A stretch of 63,939 bases of DNA, filler included, from Rhabdomonas costata (Eukaryota): the NCBI GenBank assembly GCA_019059605.1. It is 54 parts of 54 records of this genome, joined end to end, with 100 filler letters (N's around TTAATTAATTAA, not from the genome) between each part and the next. Parts side by side here need not be neighbours in the genome. Positions count along the whole stretch, not along the records: positions 27,276 to 28,360 come from JAHMHO010029355.1; 53 more parts are not named here. One strand, given 5' to 3'. The translations under genes were made by a program, and so were the position numbers. Shown here one piece after another: positions 11,153-59,300 of the stretch; position 1 is the first letter of the stretch; every line of letters begins with the position of its first letter. The notes beneath the pieces are model-generated. The model saw nothing but the letters and a program-made list of their open reading frames with translations, was not told the DNA's origin and did not search any database.

Positions 11153-11310
11153 GAATGGGAAATTACTTCGAGTTGGCGGAGCAGTTTCACACCCAAAACG
11201 AGCCTGCCTACTGTGCTCCGGGCACCCTGGTAATGGTGCTGAACGCCCTGAGCATTGACCCCGGGCGGATTTGGAAGGGACCCTGGAGGTGGTTCACAGA
11301 AGAGATGTTG
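11153..11310 (+). CDS. PCS: Phytochelatin synthase, exon with the catalytic Cys
   Basis: ggctag| acceptor; [10 protein letters not shown]...[28 protein letters not shown] matches the PCS N-terminal signature; |gtctgt donor. Confidence 0.93.
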
Positions 11311-11927
11311 GTCTGTCCCCCCCCCAAGAAAATCACTGCCTCTTTTTCTGAAGACAAAGGCGACAACACATCAGTTGGACTTCCTGTTGGTGCTGTCTGG
11401 CTATTCTACAACAGCCAGGGTGGATTTGTTAAAATTCGGAACACCCAAAAACCCACTGGTCGGCTCCTTTCTGTCTCCGGTTCCTTTGAAATTTTGGAAA
11501 GGGATAGTTTCGGAAGTTCAAATTCACGGGCACTGTGGCACAGGCACAGGAGTTTTGCAACGGGTGGGTTTCTCCAGAAAGCAAACAATTTACAAAGAAG
11601 AAACGCAAGAGAAACGCAAGGGTTGAATATAAAACGACAGATTGGCGGTCGGGGAAGTGCTGAAGCGGGAAAGTTAAAAGCGGTGCACTGTACATCTGGA
11701 TGTATGCAAGGGGAGGGGGACAGACCAGCATCTCTTCTGTGAACCACCTCCAGGGTCCCCCNNNNNNNNNNNNNNNNNNNNNNNNNNNNNNNNNNNNNNN
11801 NNNNNTTAATTAATTAANNNNNNNNNNNNNNNNNNNNNNNNNNNNNNNNNNNNNNNNNNNNTCCACAGAACCGCCCAGTCCACACATGTGGGGAGGACAT
11901 GGAAGTGTGGAGAGGGTGAGCTTATAC

Positions 11928-26869: not shown

Positions 26870-27401
26870 GTACCCAAAAAATAACAATGAAGGACGGACA
26901 AAGAAAAAAAGAGAGAAGAGACTCGATGTGGTTCTCTTGCTACATTCCCCCCGCTCTCATAGCCATCCACATTAGCAAGGGTATTTCTTTGGGCCTCACT
27001 CTCGCTGGAAAGCCCCTTCGCCGCCACGACGCGGTCAGTCAGGGCCCCACTCGAATTCGCACGAATCGCACAGATCCACAGAGGATTATATTTAATCCTT
27101 GGCTTCATCAGATGAAAGACTTGTTGGTAGAGAAAGAATTGGACACCGATATATTAAGGAAGAAACTCCAAAAACNNNNNNNNNNNNNNNNNNNNNNNNN
27201 NNNNNNNNNNNNNNNNNNNTTAATTAATTAANNNNNNNNNNNNNNNNNNNNNNNNNNNNNNNNNNNNNNNNNNNNTGTTGGGGCCTGTTCTTTCTCCGGA
27301 GACCATCCCTTGCGCGCGGTTCACTCCGAAAAACTTCTTCCAAAGCGGATTGTATATGATCGCCGAAGTCACATGACTGTCACACTTTCCGCTTTCCACA
27401 G

Positions 27402-27632
27402 GATCTGCTGACGATGATGGGTATTGTAGAGATGGTGGAGGTGAAGACGCTGGCCAGCCGCAGGCTGCGGCTTCTGGGGCACAAATTCTCGATCCACACC
27501 AGCCTGAATGACTTCGAGGGGGGCTCGAGGTACGAGTTCAAGAACTTCGCGCGGGCGTACAAGGTGGACACCCACGTCCACATGGCCGCGGGGATGACCT
27601 CCCGGCAGCTCCTGGAGTTTTTGAAAAGCAAG
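27402..27632 (+). CDS. AMPD: AMP deaminase exon
   Basis: tttccacag| ...VKTLASRRLRLL...KVDTHVHMAAGMTSRQLLEFLKSK; contains the KVDTHxH metal-binding motif; probable GC donor (AAG|gcatgc). Confidence 0.92.
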
Positions 27633-28250
27633 GCATGCCCTGCATCACTGAATCACATCGCTCGTTTTATTCCCTTTCTCTCTTCAAACGATATATACGA
27701 GGAAAAACACAAAAACAAGAGTTCCCCGAAACTGTAATAATACTCTCCTTCCTGACCAGAAGACTTGGAGCTATTCCATTCCATTCCATTCCAGTTGTTC
27801 TGGTTCTTTTGAGAACTCTAAAAGGCGCAGATAAGTGCTCGAAAGAGACCTAGCGGCCAGACCATCCTTGAGAGGAATTGCCCTGGCCCTCGTTCTACTG
27901 CACTCCCGTCCCCAAAGCAGAGCCCCAAGTGACGAGCTCACTTCAATACAAGCATGTGCAAGTAAGTCTCATCACAATGTTCTTAGGATTGTCCTCTCGG
28001 GGTTTTCCTGGATACTCTCGTCTCCACCCTCGCCCTGTCTTTCCACACTTACACGGACCCTCCGCCTCACCTTGCTCTCTCTCTCTTCTCTCACACATAA
28101 CCCCCCACCTCAACCCCAGCCCAGCGCATCCATCATCCCGTCACACAGTACCTCGCACATCCAGAGCCCAACCCATCCTCCGATTTCAGATGCGAAGCAT
28201 CCCACAATAAGTCGACCTCCACCCCACAGTCCCAAAGAACCCGACGAAGA

Positions 28251-28318
28251 GCATCCAAGGCAGGCGGAGATGGTGCCTTGCTGATGATGACCCAACCACT
28301 CCGCTAGGGTCGAAACGC
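28251..28318 (+). ncRNA. Type III hammerhead ribozyme motif with loop I-loop II pseudoknot (stem III partly degenerate)
   Basis: AUC site 28253-28255; stem I caaggca 28256-62 / tgccttg 28274-80; CUGAUGA 28281-87 plus extra U; stem II gaccc 28289-93 / gggtc 28307-11; GAAA 28312-15; loops gcggag and ctccgc are complementary. Confidence 0.78.
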
Positions 28319-30857
28319 CAGTCACTCCGGTAAGACATCAGATCATCCAGCTGCACAACANNNNNNNNNNNNNNNNNNNNNNNNNNNNNNNNNNNNNNNN
28401 NNNNTTAATTAATTAANNNNNNNNNNNNNNNNNNNNNNNNNNNNNNNNNNNNNNNNNNNNGTTGTTGGGGTGGTCATATTTCACACCAGGCTTTCTACTG
28501 CCCTCCAAATGAATGGGGTCTTGGCGCCGCTACAGCCGTGGTGGTCCAATAATCTCGAAGATACCGACACAGCAGCAGGGATTTCTGAGACCCCGGTTCG
28601 GAGCTGCCCGAGGAAAGGGTATTACCCCTCCAAGTACCGAACCATCCCGAACCCACCACGTGTCGCAACCTGCGGGCAGCCTCCGCAGACCGAGTCCCCG
28701 TAGGGAGCTCCGACGGCAGTCCTCATCAGGCTCATCTGCACTAACACACCCACCCACCTCCAAATCCAAGAGGAGTCGGAAACCAAAGGAGTTTGAAGCT
28801 GATATGTCACTCACCGAGTTGATAATCGCGCCGATGGAGGCGACGCCAACAGTCAAACCAATCCACGTGGATTATGAGTGACTTCGGTACACGACGGTTT
28901 AAATTTTCGGACAAAAAGTCAGTTCTCTGCTGGACTAAGGGTGCATCGACAATTTTTTGTCGTTGACTGTAGCAGATTCTCTCAATCTGACCAGATCCAA
29001 GCTGCCACGAGAGATCCTAATGACGCAGGTGGACAGAACCAGCGTCAGAGTCGACACCTTCGTTCGTCCTGTGTTACTAATCCCAACTAGCTCTCAAGGT
29101 AATCACATCGCCAATCCCAATGATTCTCAAATACACGTTACTCCGTTACTTCAGAGTCCAAGACAAGTGGGCAACCAGTCAGAGCACTCTCCACAACCAA
29201 GGTCAGACCTAACAGGTGCAAGCGCACTCATCCACCAAACAGCTGCCTTTCATTCGACTTTGTGGAGAACACTTTTGAGATATCTCGGATCCAGTGGAAA
29301 CATCCACCGAACCATTAGCACTTGTTGACCAACCGCCCATCTTGGAGCAAATTCAGTCAGCTAGGTGATGCGGAAACAAGTAAAGAAATAGACCTCACAC
29401 CAGAGGAGCGCACTGAGATTAAGAGTCTGGAATTTCGGCAGACTGTCAGCAGAGCCGGAAAAGACCCTGCTTGTGATGAGCCGACACCCATCTTCAAATC
29501 GTTCACAGCAGATGCTGGACGCCTTTATTCACACCACCTGTAAAAGNNNNNNNNNNNNNNNNNNNNNNNNNNNNNNNNNNNNNNNNNNNNTTAATTAATT
29601 AANNNNNNNNNNNNNNNNNNNNNNNNNNNNNNNNNNNNNNNNNNNNGTATCCCATTTTCGGAAAACAAGCGGCGTCCGGCTGCAGGGGCCGCTCGTTGGA
29701 TTTATCCACTTCACTTGAACCCATCTCCAGGCGGTTGCGTTACCGCTTTGGTGCACGCAAAATAATGGCGACCACAGTGATGAGACAATTTTTTTTTGGC
29801 AATGGCACTGACTCATAACCTGAGCTGAGCGCACTGCGCACTGTGCTTCTCACGTTATGGGACGGAGTCATTCCAACACTGGAGATCTGGAAAGAAATGA
29901 TCAGAAAGGTTAATGTTCACAATGTTAGTGCTTCTGGTGTTACGGAAAGCTAATGTGCTGGATGGACCCCACTGTTTTCTCTTGCCGAGTAGTTGTCAGG
30001 CTCCAACGCGAACGCACTACAATGGCATCACACGATCGCAATGCTTTTTGTTCCATTGCAAGATCAATGATTGTTGTTGACAAAAACAAGAATCTACATG
30101 AACATGAGCGACAGGAAGATGCCATGCCTTCGATTTTGACCTTTTGTCAACGTTTTCGCTTCCCATCCTGTACCATGCGGAGGAACCTTCTTACGAGCAC
30201 ACTGATTTTCATTTCGTGGACTTCTTCCGTTACAGTCACGTTTGAGCCCAAGGTGATGATAATGCAACACTACATCGGCCATTCTGTCGAAGAAGTGGAC
30301 GCATTGGAGCTGCCTGTGCACGGGGCGCAACACAAAAGTGGAACTTGTCTGGTACTCGTGTTTGCAGAACTTCGTTGACGAGGTGGGTGCGCTTCTGCCA
30401 CCTCTCTCGTCTGACGTAGGTAGGCCGTGGATATTTTTTACAGTCGAACTGAGAGCGTTCAACAGCCCACCGCGCCGGATTCCATGCCAAATACACGCAA
30501 AGAATGTGACAGCAGCGGGGACGACACCAGCGACTCTTCTGCAGAGGAAAGCATTCTTTCCGATGGCTTGCGCGACTAGATGGATTTGCAAGATGCCGCC
30601 GATTTTTTGCCATGTGCTTCAGTCAACCCAGGCTCCGGCAGCGACTCAGATACTGCGGACCCGAAGGATGTTCCGTTCGTCACAAACTGTTTGGAATTCA
30701 CTTCCAGCGTATCTAAACACCATTTACACATTNNNNNNNNNNNNNNNNNNNNNNNNNNNNNNNNNNNNNNNNNNNNTTAATTAATTAANNNNNNNNNNNN
30801 NNNNNNNNNNNNNNNNNNNNNNNNNNNNNNNNTGTGTTGGGTGTTTTTTGTGTGGTG

Positions 30858-52188: not shown

Positions 52189-53272
52189 TGTGGTGTTGCG
52201 TCTCTGTTCCGTGTCTTAAACTACCTCTCTTCCGATGGAACGGCTCTTCTTCCGAAACTCTGGCGTGTTGCAGACGTCTCCACTCGCCTGCTTCCACCTC
52301 GCAACTCTCAAATTAACCTCAACGAGCTTGAAGCCGTTTTCCTGCAGGCGGTGTTTGCCCAAACTTTCCTTAGTGATAATGAAGAGTTAGGTGGCCTCGC
52401 AGCACTTCCCTGTGCAGCACTTTTTGAGCAACAGGGGGCGTCCTCATTTCCCTTTTTCCTTGCCGCGCTATGTTACGACTCCACCCTGTTCGCCGGCCTC
52501 GCTGCTTCCTCTCCAAAATATTCAACCGTATGCTGTGACAACTGGATTTCTTCTTCTGCCTGGGAAGCGATTGATTGCATCGAGGAGCGGTCGGGTGAAC
52601 TCCGTGGCCTACGCGACTCTATTCTTGCCAAGGAAGGGCTGTGGAAATCGTGGGCTCAGGCCGCAAACTTGGCTGCGAAATTGCCTCCTCCATTTGAAAA
52701 GGTGTGCACCAGGGTTGACCGTATGCTTCTTGCTTGCCTGCTCGCACCTCTGCAGTTGCCCGCTGTTGCCCAGAACTATGTGCGGGCAGTGTTCAGGGAA
52801 AAGCTTGGTAAGTCCTTCTTTCTGTCTGAAGATACCTCCGAACTGTGGAAATGGGTGGTATGTCAAGTGAGCTTCAGGTGCCCAGCTGTTTTCGTCTTGC
52901 CGTATCCTGATGCGCAGCTCGATGAAGAGCTTACAACTCAGCTTACCGCTGCGTTAAGGAACAAGGGCTTGGTTGTGATTAAACTTTGCTCCACTACTGA
53001 CTTTTTGGAGGCAGCATCCGATGCTCTTACTAATGTCGCAGCAAACGGAGGGTGGCTCTTGATAAGGTGTGGGCAGCACCACTGTCACTCTTTGATGGAG
53101 AAGGTTGCCGCTGCGTTTGAGACATGTCCCCACCAAGACTGTCGGGTACTCCTATCACTTTGGTATGAGGAGCAGGTGAGCCATCACCTCAGAGAGTCAG
53201 CTGTCATGCTGCGCTTGCCGCCACTTTTGGGACTCAAGGATCATTTGATGTCGATCTTCAAAACAACCAACA
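52189..53272 (+). CDS. Divergent dynein heavy chain-like protein, AAA6 region (whole contig is one open frame)
   Basis: Stop-free frame of about 360 codons; DRMLLACLLAP...NYV...KLGKSF, PAVFVL, AANGGWLLI, PHQDCRVLLS, PPLLGLKDHL follow the dynein AAA6 motif order. Confidence 0.75.
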
Positions 53273-56289: not shown

Positions 56290-56387
56290 CTTGAGGACTT
56301 CCAGGGCCTCCCCCACCTTCCCGTTCAGCATTTCGGGAGAGTTAAGGAGGTTCAGAATCTCCAAGTTGTCCATCTCAAGCAACATTC
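56290..56387 (-). CDS. PABP: MLLE/PABC domain exon, probably poly(A)-binding protein
   Basis: ttacacag| GMLLEMDNLEILNLLNSPEMLNGKVGEALEVLK |gttggt. Confidence 0.9.
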
Positions 56388-59300
56388 CTGTGTAACGTGT
56401 AAACGCAAGGGACAGGTGCTGTGCGCCGTAAATGCCCACAATCCCATCCACACAATTGAATGTAGTCAAACGATCTCCAGCAAACCGAAGGGACTCACAC
56501 AAATGCAAGTGCCATTCAGTACACCAGTCCCTTGCCTTGCGTTCCAGTATGCCAGAGTGCAGTGATGTGCGAATCCCGGAGGGAAGGTTTGGGCACTGCT
56601 GCTACGGGGCGTGCACCAAGGGAAGCAAAGAAGCAATGCAAGCCAAAGAATTCCGCAGTCCCCCGGTTTAACTCAGGGGCTCAATGGAAGAAACAGTTCC
56701 AGGGAACACATGCGTAGCCTCTTAATCCCCTGCAAAAGCCTCTATTGCAACCCCATGTGATCCGTGCATCACCTCCTAACTTCCTGCACACTCAGGTAAG
56801 GGACCAAAACCCCCAAACACACCGAACACNNNNNNNNNNNNNNNNNNNNNNNNNNNNNNNNNNNNNNNNNNNNTTAATTAATTAANNNNNNNNNNNNNNN
56901 NNNNNNNNNNNNNNNNNNNNNNNNNNNNNTTTTGCAGAATTGTTCCCATGTTTGATGCGAACACCCACGCCTCCGCGCGCTATAAGCCCAAGACTCTCGC
57001 ATCACCCAAGCTCCAACAAGCTTGTACACGTCTCCGCACAGGAGAATGTATTTTACACGGAAACACAGACACGATGAAAAGTGACCCATGAGGAGGGGTC
57101 AAGGTGGAGGGCATCACTATCTCACATGGGGCAGAACGCTATACTCAAACTAACCTATTCACAGAGGTGGTAGGTAGGTATGGTTCAGGTGTGTTGGGAT
57201 TGGGAGGCGAGGAAAGGACGGCCGGAGCAAGGGTTCTCCAGACGGTCTTCTTTTTCCGCACCAGAGATCAGCCACAACTTTGCCTAACCAGCAAGCGAAT
57301 GAGGGACGGGAACGACAAGGGGAAGGGTGGGGGTACGGTCGCAGGTGAAAACCTGGCAAGGGCTCAAGGAAACGCAGAAGGTCACAAAGACAGGTGAGAA
57401 ATCACGGTCTTCGGGAGTTTCTCTTCGACGAGAGAAAGGGCAACAGAAAAGGGTGCTGATGTGAATGCGGGGACTGAACAGGAGGCAGTGAATGAAGGTC
57501 GGGCTGGTGTTTGAAAAATAAGTCATTTCGGGGGGGGGGTGACGAACCCACAGCCAATAATCCTAACTGAAAGAGCACCACAAACCAACTTACCTCCAAG
57601 TGCGACGTTGAGGTGAATTCAAGTCAACAGTCTCGAGGAACAATAATAATCCCGATCGTATCCCGACAATCTCCCATCTTAAAAACCAATCATCAGATGG
57701 ACGCGGATAGGTCATTTAACCACGCCTTCCATCTCGCAGAACTCTCGCGAGATAAACCCAAGCCCGTGCAAAAAGGGATAGCGATCATGTTTTTTAATTC
57801 AGGGCAGCCAGGCAAAAACGTCGTTAAGGGTGCAAAATACTTCGAATACCCCGGAACGCGGCATGGGGAAGGGAATATCTGTCACACTGGCCCGCACCGG
57901 CATTCAACATCCTTTTCCAGACTCACTGAGAGAGATACAGAAGCTGAAAGAAGCTGGGAGTAGGTACACATTCTGAGCTCATTCATACACGACCTTGTCC
58001 CATACAAAACCCCNNNNNNNNNNNNNNNNNNNNNNNNNNNNNNNNNNNNNNNNNNNNTTAATTAATTAANNNNNNNNNNNNNNNNNNNNNNNNNNNNNNN
58101 NNNNNNNNNNNNNGGTGTGGGGGTGGGGTAATCATCACGTTGGAGCAGGGCCAGCGTGTTTAGACCGTTAGACCGTGAATTTGGGGACATGATACTTGGG
58201 GATGGGTGCCCGTTCAATGGAGTATTATGGTCAGTGACCTATAATATCAATATACAAAAACACATTATACTGGTATTGTGGTTGTTATGATATTATAGGT
58301 TAATGGCTATAATACCCAATCATACGGGATCGGTATGCAATGCAGAACACAACGGCTTTATCCGCCCCCGTTCACCGAGGTGGACTGCAAAATGCATATG
58401 AAGACAAAGCTTCGAAAGGCAAGCGGCACGAGAACGCAAGATAAGGCCTAAAGTGAGAAAGAGACTCTATCCTCCCTGCACCTTCATTGGGACAAGACCC
58501 GTTCCCCGCACTGCCCCCGGTGTGAATGTGTACAAGGGCAGATGCCGCGTCCTTCCCCGAAAAAAGAAATCCGAACACCCGCGTGTGATGGGACCCGGAG
58601 GGAACTGCGCCTGTCCGGATGCACGTGAATGCGTCGACGTCCGAACACACTCTGTGACATACTCAACAGCTTTATCCGCTCCCGTTCACCGATGGATGGA
58701 GGAAGGCGCACGTGAAGAGCGAAATAAAGCCTTTAGGGCCTGCAAGAACCTCCTCTGTCCCGCAGAGCCCCCAAATGTGACGAGACTCGTCCTCCGTATC
58801 GCCCATTTTCATATGAAATGCTCCCTCAACAAGCTGGCGGATGGAGCAACCTTACCCGCAGGCCGAGCAAAAACCACATACACGGAGGTCCCAACAGCCT
58901 CGACAAGCGAGGCATCAAAGCTAGAGGGTGGTAAGCGCAAGGTGGAGGGTGAAAACAACCGCTTTCACCAGAAGCAGCGAAAGAATCCCGTTTATGCAGA
59001 CGGGTTCGCCTCGAAGCGCGAAGTCACACGCATGAGACTGGTGTCTGGAGCGTGGCGAGAAAGGTACGAAGGCGGGGCGAGCATGCATGTGCGGTGTGGT
59101 TGATATCACATACATACAACATCCTTACCATCAATCCAACATAAAATTTCCAAAATCCAAGACAGATCCAACACATACTAACCCCTTACCATCATCCAAN
59201 NNNNNNNNNNNNNNNNNNNNNNNNNNNNNNNNNNNNNNNNNNNTTAATTAATTAANNNNNNNNNNNNNNNNNNNNNNNNNNNNNNNNNNNNNNNNNNNNG

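What the first reader, a model, noticed from the sequence alone, without database searches (positions are those of the whole stretch)
28251..28318. Type III hammerhead ribozyme with a loop-loop pseudoknot
Seen: all hammerhead core elements in type III order. NUH site AUC (28253-55), 7-bp stem I (caaggca/tgccttg), CUGAUGA plus one extra U, 5-bp stem II (gaccc/gggtc, G-C closing pair), then GAAA. Loop I (ggcggagatgg) and loop II (aaccactccgcta) are complementary: gcggag/ctccgc, extendable by a G-U pair and by tgg/cca across a bulged A. Established: stem I-stem II tertiary contacts are what make natural hammerheads active in vivo, and an extra nucleotide after A9 occurs in some natural examples. 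Caveat: stem III (gcat/acgc) has an A-C mismatch at 16.2:15.2, which one G>A change from GUC would explain, so this copy may be impaired. Inference: a member of a ribozyme-bearing retroelement family in a lineage where I do not know of characterised hammerheads.
Basis: partly seen in the sequence, partly recalled or inferred. Interest (0 to 1): 0.8.

Follow-up and report, generated by a model that had tools for sequence, protein, structure and literature searches.

The report
Lone pseudoknotted hammerhead motif in intron
A short stretch inside an intron of an AMP deaminase gene of a protist has all the sequence hallmarks of a self-cutting hammerhead RNA, but one of its three stems is damaged and only this single copy could be examined, so it is probably a weak or dead ribozyme copy rather than a proven new system.

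Summary
It is the only hammerhead-like hit in the window.

Chance is unlikely but not excluded. Stems this long arose 7 times in 3462 shuffles. The loop pairing occurs in 1.4% of same-geometry controls.

Each odd feature has precedent: the extra base after A9, Watson-Crick loop-loop pseudoknots, and a 2-bp difference between helices I and II in type III.

Against it, helix III is only A-U, C·A, G-C, C-G, and the flanks offer nothing better. No Rfam hammerhead model fits this reading, though Rfam also misses evident natural hammerheads.

The motif lies on the sense strand about 615 nt downstream of an AMP deaminase exon. The host looks euglenozoan.

No other copy was found, and the genome and reads were unavailable. 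The retroelement-family idea is therefore untested.

Verdict: probably a real but impaired type III hammerhead, a new member of a known kind.

The parts
27399..27635 (+). AMP deaminase exon, the host gene; the motif lies downstream on the same strand
   Evidence: Pfam PF19326 E 2.2e-12. 42/87 identical to eukprot PhM_4 AMPD residues 753-839. tblastn found the only AMPD piece of this contig at contig positions 124-360.
28251..28255 (+). Helix III 5' strand (G16.4 C16.3 A16.2 U16.1) and C17; the predicted cleavage is between 28255 and 28256
   Evidence: Sequence. A16.2 faces C15.2, which is a mismatch.
28256..28262 (+). Helix I 5' strand, CAAGGCA
   Evidence: 7 WC pairs with 28274-80.
28263..28273 (+). 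Loop 1, GGCGGAGAUGG, one strand of the pseudoknot
   Evidence: Duplex with loop 2 at -16.1 kcal/mol; controls.
28274..28280 (+). Helix I 3' strand, UGCCUUG
28281..28288 (+). Core C3-A9 (CUGAUGA) plus an extra U after A9
   Evidence: Sequence. The same insertion occurs in natural hammerheads.
28289..28311 (+). Helix II (GACCC/GGGUC, G10.1-C11.1) with 13-nt loop 2, AACCACUCCGCUA, the second pseudoknot strand
28312..28318 (+). Core G12 A13 A14, then A15.1 and helix III 3' strand C15.2 G15.3 C15.4
   Evidence: Sequence. With helices I and II enforced, the flanks form no helix III.
28318..28332 (+). Imperfect direct repeat of the loop 2 region (12 of 15 identical to 28292-28306), a possible competing partner for loop 1
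   Evidence: the repeat finder family D3. Its role is unknown.

Best explanation
This is a genuine hammerhead-type RNA motif of type III topology. Its 5' and 3' ends lie in helix III, and helices I and II are hairpins. The two hairpin loops can lock together through a 6-bp (up to 10-bp) Watson-Crick pseudoknot.

If transcribed as part of the AMP deaminase pre-mRNA (same strand, presumptive intron), it would fold so that helix I lies alongside helix II. It would then cut after C28255 by the usual internal transesterification, leaving a 2',3'-cyclic phosphate and a 5'-OH at C28256. That chemistry is established for the class and is inferred here.

Helix III is only A-U, C·A, G-C, C-G, with no further pairing in the flanks. 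This copy is therefore most likely weakly active or dead. I read it as a decayed copy of an inserted ribozyme-bearing sequence, and a single G-to-A transition at a CpG would account for the mismatch.

Shown here: the anatomy, its rarity against controls, and its position in the gene. Inferred: transcription, cleavage, and origin by insertion and decay.
For: - All core positions are present in type III order.
- It is the only descriptor hit in the window, on either strand.
- Helix lengths this good arose 7 times in 3462 shuffles.
- Loop-loop pairing of >=6 WC bp occurred in 268 of 18780 controls, and none of 1945 controls reached its energy.
- All 12 stem pairs are Watson-Crick. G10.1-C11.1, U7, C17 and C15.2 are the usual natural choices (recalled consensus; GAAAC and GUC are seen in the loci).
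- The extra U after A9 with the same GACCC/GGGUC helix II occurs in 173 matches in 155 public loci. Of these, 129 have full type I/II and 4 have type III architecture.
- Perreault et al. 2011 (passages) report pseudoknots in all three types, in about 40% of hammerheads. In type III they are associated with a 2-bp difference between helices I and II. Here the difference is 7 - 5 = 2.
- de la Pena et al. 2021 (passages) describe atypical type III hammerheads with longer helices and stable loop 1-loop 2 pseudoknots.
- CpG is depleted in the window (observed/expected 0.77). This is compatible with a CpG-to-CpA change producing GCAUC from GCGUC.
Against: - Helix III has a mismatch next to the cleavage site. 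With helices I and II enforced, the flanks form no helix III.
- Rfam gives nothing at gathering score. No hammerhead family appears at E<=10 for 28236-28322. The only hammerhead hit is a 13.4-bit type I reading with E 2.4.
- The plain fold is no more stable than shuffles (z 0.42; 120 of 200 shuffles fold at least as well).
- The minimum-energy fold uses the loop complementarity as an ordinary nested hairpin that competes with helices I and II (-21.5 against -13.3 kcal/mol).
- There is no second copy in 58.6 kb of the same assembly, none among 275 fetched loci, and none in IMG/VR (0 matches; 0 of 120 matches have hammerhead architecture).
- Loops of 11 and 13 nt are much larger than in the natural type III examples I held, which have 4-7 nt loops.
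- Under lenient criteria, about one look-alike per two gigabases is expected by chance (my arithmetic).
Confidence: 0.62

Rival explanations
1. Chance assembly. An intron sequence contains a (TGA)3-like run that gives CUGAUGA, a GAAA, and three short inverted repeats. There is no ribozyme ancestry and no activity.
For: Relaxed type III matches arise at about 0.1 per window-equivalent in shuffles (359 in 3462). Seven of those had stems at least as long as here. Helix III fails. No Rfam hammerhead model fits the type III reading. There is no second copy. The scan holds 1104 notes that mention hammerheads, so many windows were screened for this motif.
Against: The joint occurrence of the stems and a 6-10 bp loop-loop duplex is rare. 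All stem pairs are Watson-Crick. G10.1-C11.1, C15.2, U7 and C17 all take the natural preferred identity. The 2-bp difference between helices I and II matches the published rule for pseudoknotted type III hammerheads.
Confidence: 0.27
2. A plain long hairpin or inverted repeat. In this reading 28263-73 pairs with 28296-305 as a nested stem, for example a small-RNA precursor or a transposon remnant, and the hammerhead core is incidental.
For: The minimum-energy fold of 28240-28330 uses exactly this pairing (-21.5 kcal/mol). A weak mir-1175-like hit appears on the minus strand (12.6 bits, E 1.7-4.2).
Against: It does not explain the perfect helices I and II placed exactly around CUGAUGA and GAAA. 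The Rfam hit is far below its gathering score of 51. No flanking repeat structure was found.
Confidence: 0.05
3. A type I hammerhead using GAAAC-GCCA-GUC (28312-28323) as a closed 2-bp helix III, with cleavage after C28323. This resembles metazoan or Penelope-element hammerheads that act as dimers.
For: Rfam Hammerhead_1 aligns this way at 13.4 bits (gathering score 34, E 2.4). Natural type I examples with the same core have GAAAC-AU-GUA.
Against: The bases after GUC (ACUCCGG) do not pair with those before CUGAUGA (UGCCUUG), which are already used in the 7-bp hairpin. cmscan needs a 7-nt insertion at the cleavage site. ACGCCAGU is not palindromic, so no dimeric helix III can form, unlike the ACAUGU of the termite-gut copies (principle from passages).
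Confidence: 0.03
4. An intronic box C/D snoRNA whose C box is the UGAUGA at 28282-28287.
For: Weak hits to SCARNA18 (15.1 bits, E 0.8) and to archaeal C/D sRNAs (7-12 bits) arise from GAUGAUGA.
Against: There is no CUGA D box in the 72 nt up to the contig end, and no terminal stem (sequence). All the hits are far below their gathering scores.
Confidence: 0.03

Closest known systems
Atypical type III hammerheads with Watson-Crick loop 1-loop 2 pseudoknots (Drosophila pseudoobscura genomic motif, Perreault et al. [quoted passage not shown] 2021)
   Same: Type III topology. Helices and loops are longer than in plant or viroid type III motifs. The contact between helices I and II is made by base pairs rather than non-canonical loop contacts. 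The 2-bp difference between helices I and II is as reported for pseudoknotted type III hammerheads (passages).
   Different: Those motifs use about 4 bp (GCCR/YGGC) from an internal loop of a long helix I. Here two terminal loops pair over 6-10 bp. There is an extra U after A9. Helix III is mismatched. The setting is a protist intron, not a circular RNA or an insect genome. There is no sequence homology.
Bacterial and phage type III hammerheads with one extra base after A9 (for example loci L154, L042, L038 fetched here)
   Same: Same core with an inserted base, a 5-bp G-C-closed helix II, a 5-6 bp helix I, and short Watson-Crick complementarity between the loops.
   Different: Their loops are 4-7 nt with 2-4 complementary bases. 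Their helix III is 3-6 bp with GUC or GUU, and they lie between genes. The candidate has 11- and 13-nt loops, a 6-10 bp pseudoknot and a broken helix III.
Plant LTR retrozymes and viroid/satellite type III hammerheads (Rfam RF00008)
   Same: Type III topology and the same catalytic core.
   Different: Typical members have a 6-bp helix I with a 6-8 nt loop, and a 4-bp helix II with a 4-nt loop, with non-Watson-Crick contacts (passage). They occur as pairs 600-1000 bp apart in LTRs (passage). No second copy lies in the 975 bp upstream, and RF00008 does not match.
Intronic hammerheads of amniotes (RECK, C10orf118)
   Same: A hammerhead inside an intron of a protein-coding gene. The C10 motif also depends on a 5-bp pseudoknot (passage).
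   Different: Those motifs are conserved across species and shown to be active, and by my recollection they are type I. Here there is one unverified copy with a defective helix III and no comparative data.

Membership tests
Hammerhead ribozyme (class) | Conserved core: C3 U4 G5 A6 N7 G8 A9, G12 A13 A14, A15.1-U16.1, H17 | tested here: met
   All positions are present at 28281-87, 28312-15, U28254 and C28255, with one inserted U at 28288. The insertion is frequent in natural hammerheads.
Hammerhead ribozyme (class) | Helix I and helix II flank the core, with a G10.1-C11.1 closing pair | tested here: met
   7 and 5 Watson-Crick pairs. 7 of 3462 shuffles give stems at least this long.
Hammerhead ribozyme (class) | Helix III pairs 15.x with 16.x next to the cleavage site | tested here: not met
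   Only A-U, C·A, G-C, C-G. The constrained fold forms no helix III from the flanks. Only 42 nt of 3' flank exist before the contig end.
Hammerhead ribozyme (class) | Tertiary contact between helices I and II | tested here: met
   In silico only. A 6-10 bp loop-loop duplex at -16.1 kcal/mol, reached by 0 of 1945 controls.
Hammerhead ribozyme (class) | Site-specific self-cleavage | not testable with these tools
   No reads or runs were available. This needs a bench assay.
Rfam RF00008 Hammerhead_3 | Covariance-model score at or above gathering (48.5 bits) | tested here: not met
   No hit at E<=10 on 28236-28322. As a control, Rfam at gathering score found 0 hammerheads in 7 loci that carry evident ones. 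It scored one of two type III motifs of L154 at only 28.2 bits. The test is therefore insensitive for this subclass.
Retrozyme / ribozyme-bearing retroelement | Two or more hammerhead copies in direct repeats, and many genomic copies | tested here: inconclusive
   No second motif in the 1085-bp contig and none in the other 53 contigs. The genome is not held and the contig ends 42 nt downstream.
Retrozyme / ribozyme-bearing retroelement | LTRs, primer-binding site, polypurine tract, target-site duplication | not tested
   There is too little flanking sequence. The repeat finder shows no long direct repeat in the contig.
Metazoan / Penelope-element type I minimal hammerhead | Open helix I formed by the flanks, and a short palindromic helix III that allows dimers | tested here: not met
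   The flanks ACUCCGG and UGCCUUG do not pair. ACGCCAGU is not palindromic.
Box C/D snoRNA | C box, D box (CUGA) and terminal stem | tested here: not met
   A C-box-like UGAUGA is present. There is no CUGA downstream to the contig end and no terminal stem. Rfam hits score 7-15 bits against gathering scores of 39-54.

The most novel reading that the evidence does not exclude
This is the first natural hammerhead ribozyme of Euglenozoa. It is a pseudoknot-locked type III motif that is transcribed within the AMP deaminase pre-mRNA and still cuts, with the C·A pair tolerated or protonated. It is either one member of an undescribed ribozyme-bearing mobile family of this lineage, or a cis-acting regulator of the host transcript. 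The duplicated CACUCCG segment downstream (28323-29) would compete with loop 2 for loop 1 and act as an on/off conformational switch.
Probability: 0.12. Interest if true: 0.6.

Novelty: new member of a known kind. Interest (0 to 1): 0.33.

Why it matters
Hammerheads are already known from all domains of life, and pseudoknotted type III variants are in print. The motif class is therefore not new.

What would be new is the lineage. My searches found no natural hammerhead reported in euglenozoans, and the motif sits on the sense strand within an intron of a housekeeping gene.

If further copies exist in the genome, this one would point to an unrecognised family of ribozyme-bearing mobile RNA in a protist group with very unusual RNA processing. 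If it is single and dead, it is a molecular fossil of little consequence.

A practical by-product concerns detection. Rfam's hammerhead models at gathering score missed evident natural hammerheads with a bulged base after A9. Descriptor searches are needed for this subclass.

Tried and rejected
Genome and reads:
- Copy number, covariation and RNA ends therefore could not be tested.

Earlier notes of this scan:
- There was nothing for this sequence, this genome, or the specific words.
- The general hammerhead notes concern phages, bacteria and giant viruses only.

Searches for relatives:
- blastn of the contig against the other 53 contigs found nothing above 27.4 bits.
- blastn of 27636-28360 against 275 fetched loci (2.03 Mb) matched only the generic core and helix II of L038.
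- An IMG/VR scan for helix I plus core gave 0 matches.
None of the 120 has hammerhead architecture, so I treat them as chance.
They returned unrelated natural hammerheads, not relatives.

Other checks:
- Two malformed patterns were rejected by the tool. Only the second was re-sent in corrected form; the pattern was replaced by the more specific pattern.
- Plain thermodynamic stability is uninformative (z 0.42).
- ORFs across the motif on either strand have no Pfam family, so it is not coding.
- Lineage: the 361-aa ORF search found nothing. The Atlas suggests a dynein-like protein with generic eukaryote taxa. The phytochelatin synthase exon is too widely conserved to place the host. The euglenozoan assignment rests on one AMP deaminase exon.
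- I did not build a covariance model of type III hammerheads with a bulged base. Only 4 credible examples were in hand.
- Supplementary files of Perreault 2011 and the other papers, including species lists of hammerheads, were not consulted. They might list a euglenozoan example.

Full report
**What the window is**

The 63,939 bases are 54 contigs of about 1,086 bp each, joined by N44-TTAATTAATTAA-N44 linkers. The finding lies in contig 27276-28360, 42 nt before its end.

On the same strand, 27399-27635 is an exon of AMP deaminase:
- Pfam PF19326 matches at E 2.2e-12.
- 42 of 87 residues are identical to a eukprot PhM_4 protein.
- It is the only AMP deaminase piece in the contig.

The homologues continue for hundreds of residues beyond this exon. 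The 725 bp downstream, including the motif, are therefore most simply an intron read in the sense direction (inference).

All 10 significant hits among 95 candidates are eukprot transcriptome proteins: eight PhM_4 isoforms, one unnamed Trinity assembly and one Hpha protein. By my recollection of those labels, they point to Euglenozoa. Other attempts to place the host were uninformative.

**The observation**

- GCAUC at 28251-55.
- A 7-bp Watson-Crick helix I (28256-62 / 28274-80) with an 11-nt loop.
- CUGAUGA at 28281-87, then one extra U.
- A 5-bp helix II (28289-93 / 28307-11) closed by G-C, with a 13-nt loop.
- GAAA at 28312-15, then CGC.

The loops pair as GCGGAG/CUCCGC. RNAduplex extends this to 10 bp with a bulged A, at -16.1 kcal/mol. 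Helix III is A-U, C·A, G-C, C-G. When helices I and II are enforced, the flanks form nothing better.

**Is it more than chance?**

- A type III descriptor of my own hit only this site in the window, on either strand. It requires CUGANGA, 0-1 inserted base, helix I >=4, helix II >=3, G-U allowed, loops 3-40, UH and GAAA.
- A type-agnostic search for core plus helix II also hit only this site.
- In dinucleotide shuffles the relaxed descriptor hit 35 times in 400 and 359 times in 3462. Seven of the 359 had helix I >=7 and helix II >=5.
- Six or more contiguous Watson-Crick pairs between two segments of the same geometry occurred in 268 of 18,780 positions sampled from the real contigs. None of 1,945 such controls reached -16.1 kcal/mol; the minimum was -13.6.

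Multiplying the two rates gives about 3e-5 per 58.6 kb. That is roughly one look-alike per two gigabases under lenient criteria.

Requiring what is actually seen lowers this by a further factor of about 500. That means all 12 stem pairs Watson-Crick and G10.1-C11.1. Both figures are my arithmetic, not a simulation. Real genomes hold more hairpins and (TGA)n runs than shuffles do, so the lenient figure is the safer one.

**Do the odd features fit natural hammerheads?**

They do.

That is 173 matches in 155 loci. By a simple test, 129 of the 173 have complete type I or II architecture, 4 have type III, and 40 have neither. The set includes five tandem copies in L046 and gene-flanking copies in L038 and L154. 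[quoted passage not shown]

*The pseudoknot.* Perreault et al. 2011 report pseudoknots between helices I and II in all three types, in about 40% of hammerheads. Shortening a 6-bp pseudoknot cut activity 20- to more than 100-fold. [quoted passage not shown] Here the difference is 7 - 5 = 2. de la Pena et al. 2021 describe atypical type III hammerheads with longer helices and stable loop 1-loop 2 pseudoknots (passages).

So the architecture is a known variant, not a new one.

**Evidence against**

- Rfam gives no match at gathering score in the window.
- No hammerhead family appears at E<=10 on 28236-28322.
- On 28150-28360 the only hammerhead hit is a type I reading at 13.4 bits (gathering score 34, E 2.4). 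It needs a 7-nt insertion at the cleavage site.

I checked how much weight this deserves. Rfam at gathering score found no hammerhead in seven loci that carry evident ones. It found none at E<=10 in four of them searched whole. In an 881-nt stretch of L154 that holds two type III motifs by my descriptor, it listed one, at 28.2 bits against a gathering score of 48.5. The Rfam negative therefore counts for little in this subclass.

More serious points:
- The C15.2·A16.2 mismatch lies next to the scissile bond.
- The loops (11 and 13 nt) are far larger than in the natural type III examples I held, which have 4-7 nt loops and 2-4 complementary bases.
- The lowest-energy plain fold uses the loop complementarity as a nested hairpin that competes with helices I and II.
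- No relative was found at all.

**Mechanism and state**

If active, the RNA would cut after C28255, leaving a 2',3'-cyclic phosphate and a 5'-OH. The pseudoknot would hold helix I against helix II. This is established for the class and inferred here.

Because helix III is defective, I expect weak or no activity. The mismatch is what a single transition in a CpG (GCGUC to GCAUC) would give, and CpG is depleted in the window (observed/expected 0.77). A decayed copy is a reasonable reading, but this is inference.

A 15-nt imperfect repeat of the loop 2 region lies just downstream (28318-32; 12 of 15 identical). It offers loop 1 a 5-bp alternative partner. Its meaning is unknown.

**Rivals**

- Pure chance is the main rival, at about a quarter.
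- A plain hairpin does not explain the exact placement of the stems around the core.
- The type I reading lacks helix I and a palindromic helix III.
- A box C/D snoRNA lacks a D box and a terminal stem.

**What could not be done**

The claim of a retroelement family therefore remains untested. Within the 58.6 kb available there is no second copy.

Two full-text searches found no natural hammerhead reported in Euglenozoa. The papers that hold both terms concern engineered ribozymes or unrelated topics, judging by titles and abstracts. Craig et al. 2021 does not mention euglenids. Supplementary species lists were not seen.

**Verdict**

The interpretation as a pseudoknotted type III hammerhead is probably right (about 0.6), and the copy is probably impaired. 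The retroelement-family claim is unsupported for lack of data. This is a new member of a known kind, of modest interest unless further copies or cleavage are shown.

Noticed in passing
whole window: The window is not one locus. It is 54 contigs of 1084-1093 bp joined by N44-TTAATTAATTAA-N44 linkers, so neighbouring features across linkers are unrelated.
   Followed up: yes
28292-28306 and 28318-28332: A 15-nt imperfect direct repeat (12 of 15 identical) duplicates the pseudoknot strand of loop 2 just downstream of GAAA. CACUCCG occurs at 28297-303 and at 28323-329. It could be a competing partner for loop 1 or a small duplication.
   Followed up: partly
27396-27401 and 27628-27643: The AMP deaminase exon is preceded by a pyrimidine-rich tract and CAG. 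It ends at AAGGCA|UGCC with no GT. The junction is a palindrome (GCAAGGCATGC/GCATGCCCTGC) that resembles the two arms of helix I. Ten-mer matches like this are expected by chance in 1 kb.
   Followed up: partly
11155-11334 (+), 56293-56391 (-), 52189-53271 (+): Other coding pieces are present: a phytochelatin synthase exon (PF05023, E 9e-23), an MLLE domain exon (PF00658, E 2e-11), and a contig-long 361-aa open frame. The frame has no Pfam hit, and the Atlas places it near dynein heavy chain fragments (score 0.94).
   Followed up: partly
L046 2697-3265; L154 about 1640-2390; L038 395-422 and 1250-1277: Public contigs with the same core module hold clustered hammerheads. L046 (a metagenome contig) has five tandem type I copies at about 136-bp spacing. 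L154 (a Caulobacter MAG) has three motifs within 800 bp. L038 (a phage-like contig) has two copies bracketing one gene.
   Followed up: partly
L154, L042, L038, L088, L046, L021, L009: Rfam 15 at gathering score reports no hammerhead in any of these loci, although they carry evident ones with a bulged base after A9. Rfam-based annotation appears to under-detect this subclass.
   Followed up: partly
27773-27792: A short (ATTCC)4 microsatellite lies in the presumptive intron.
   Followed up: no
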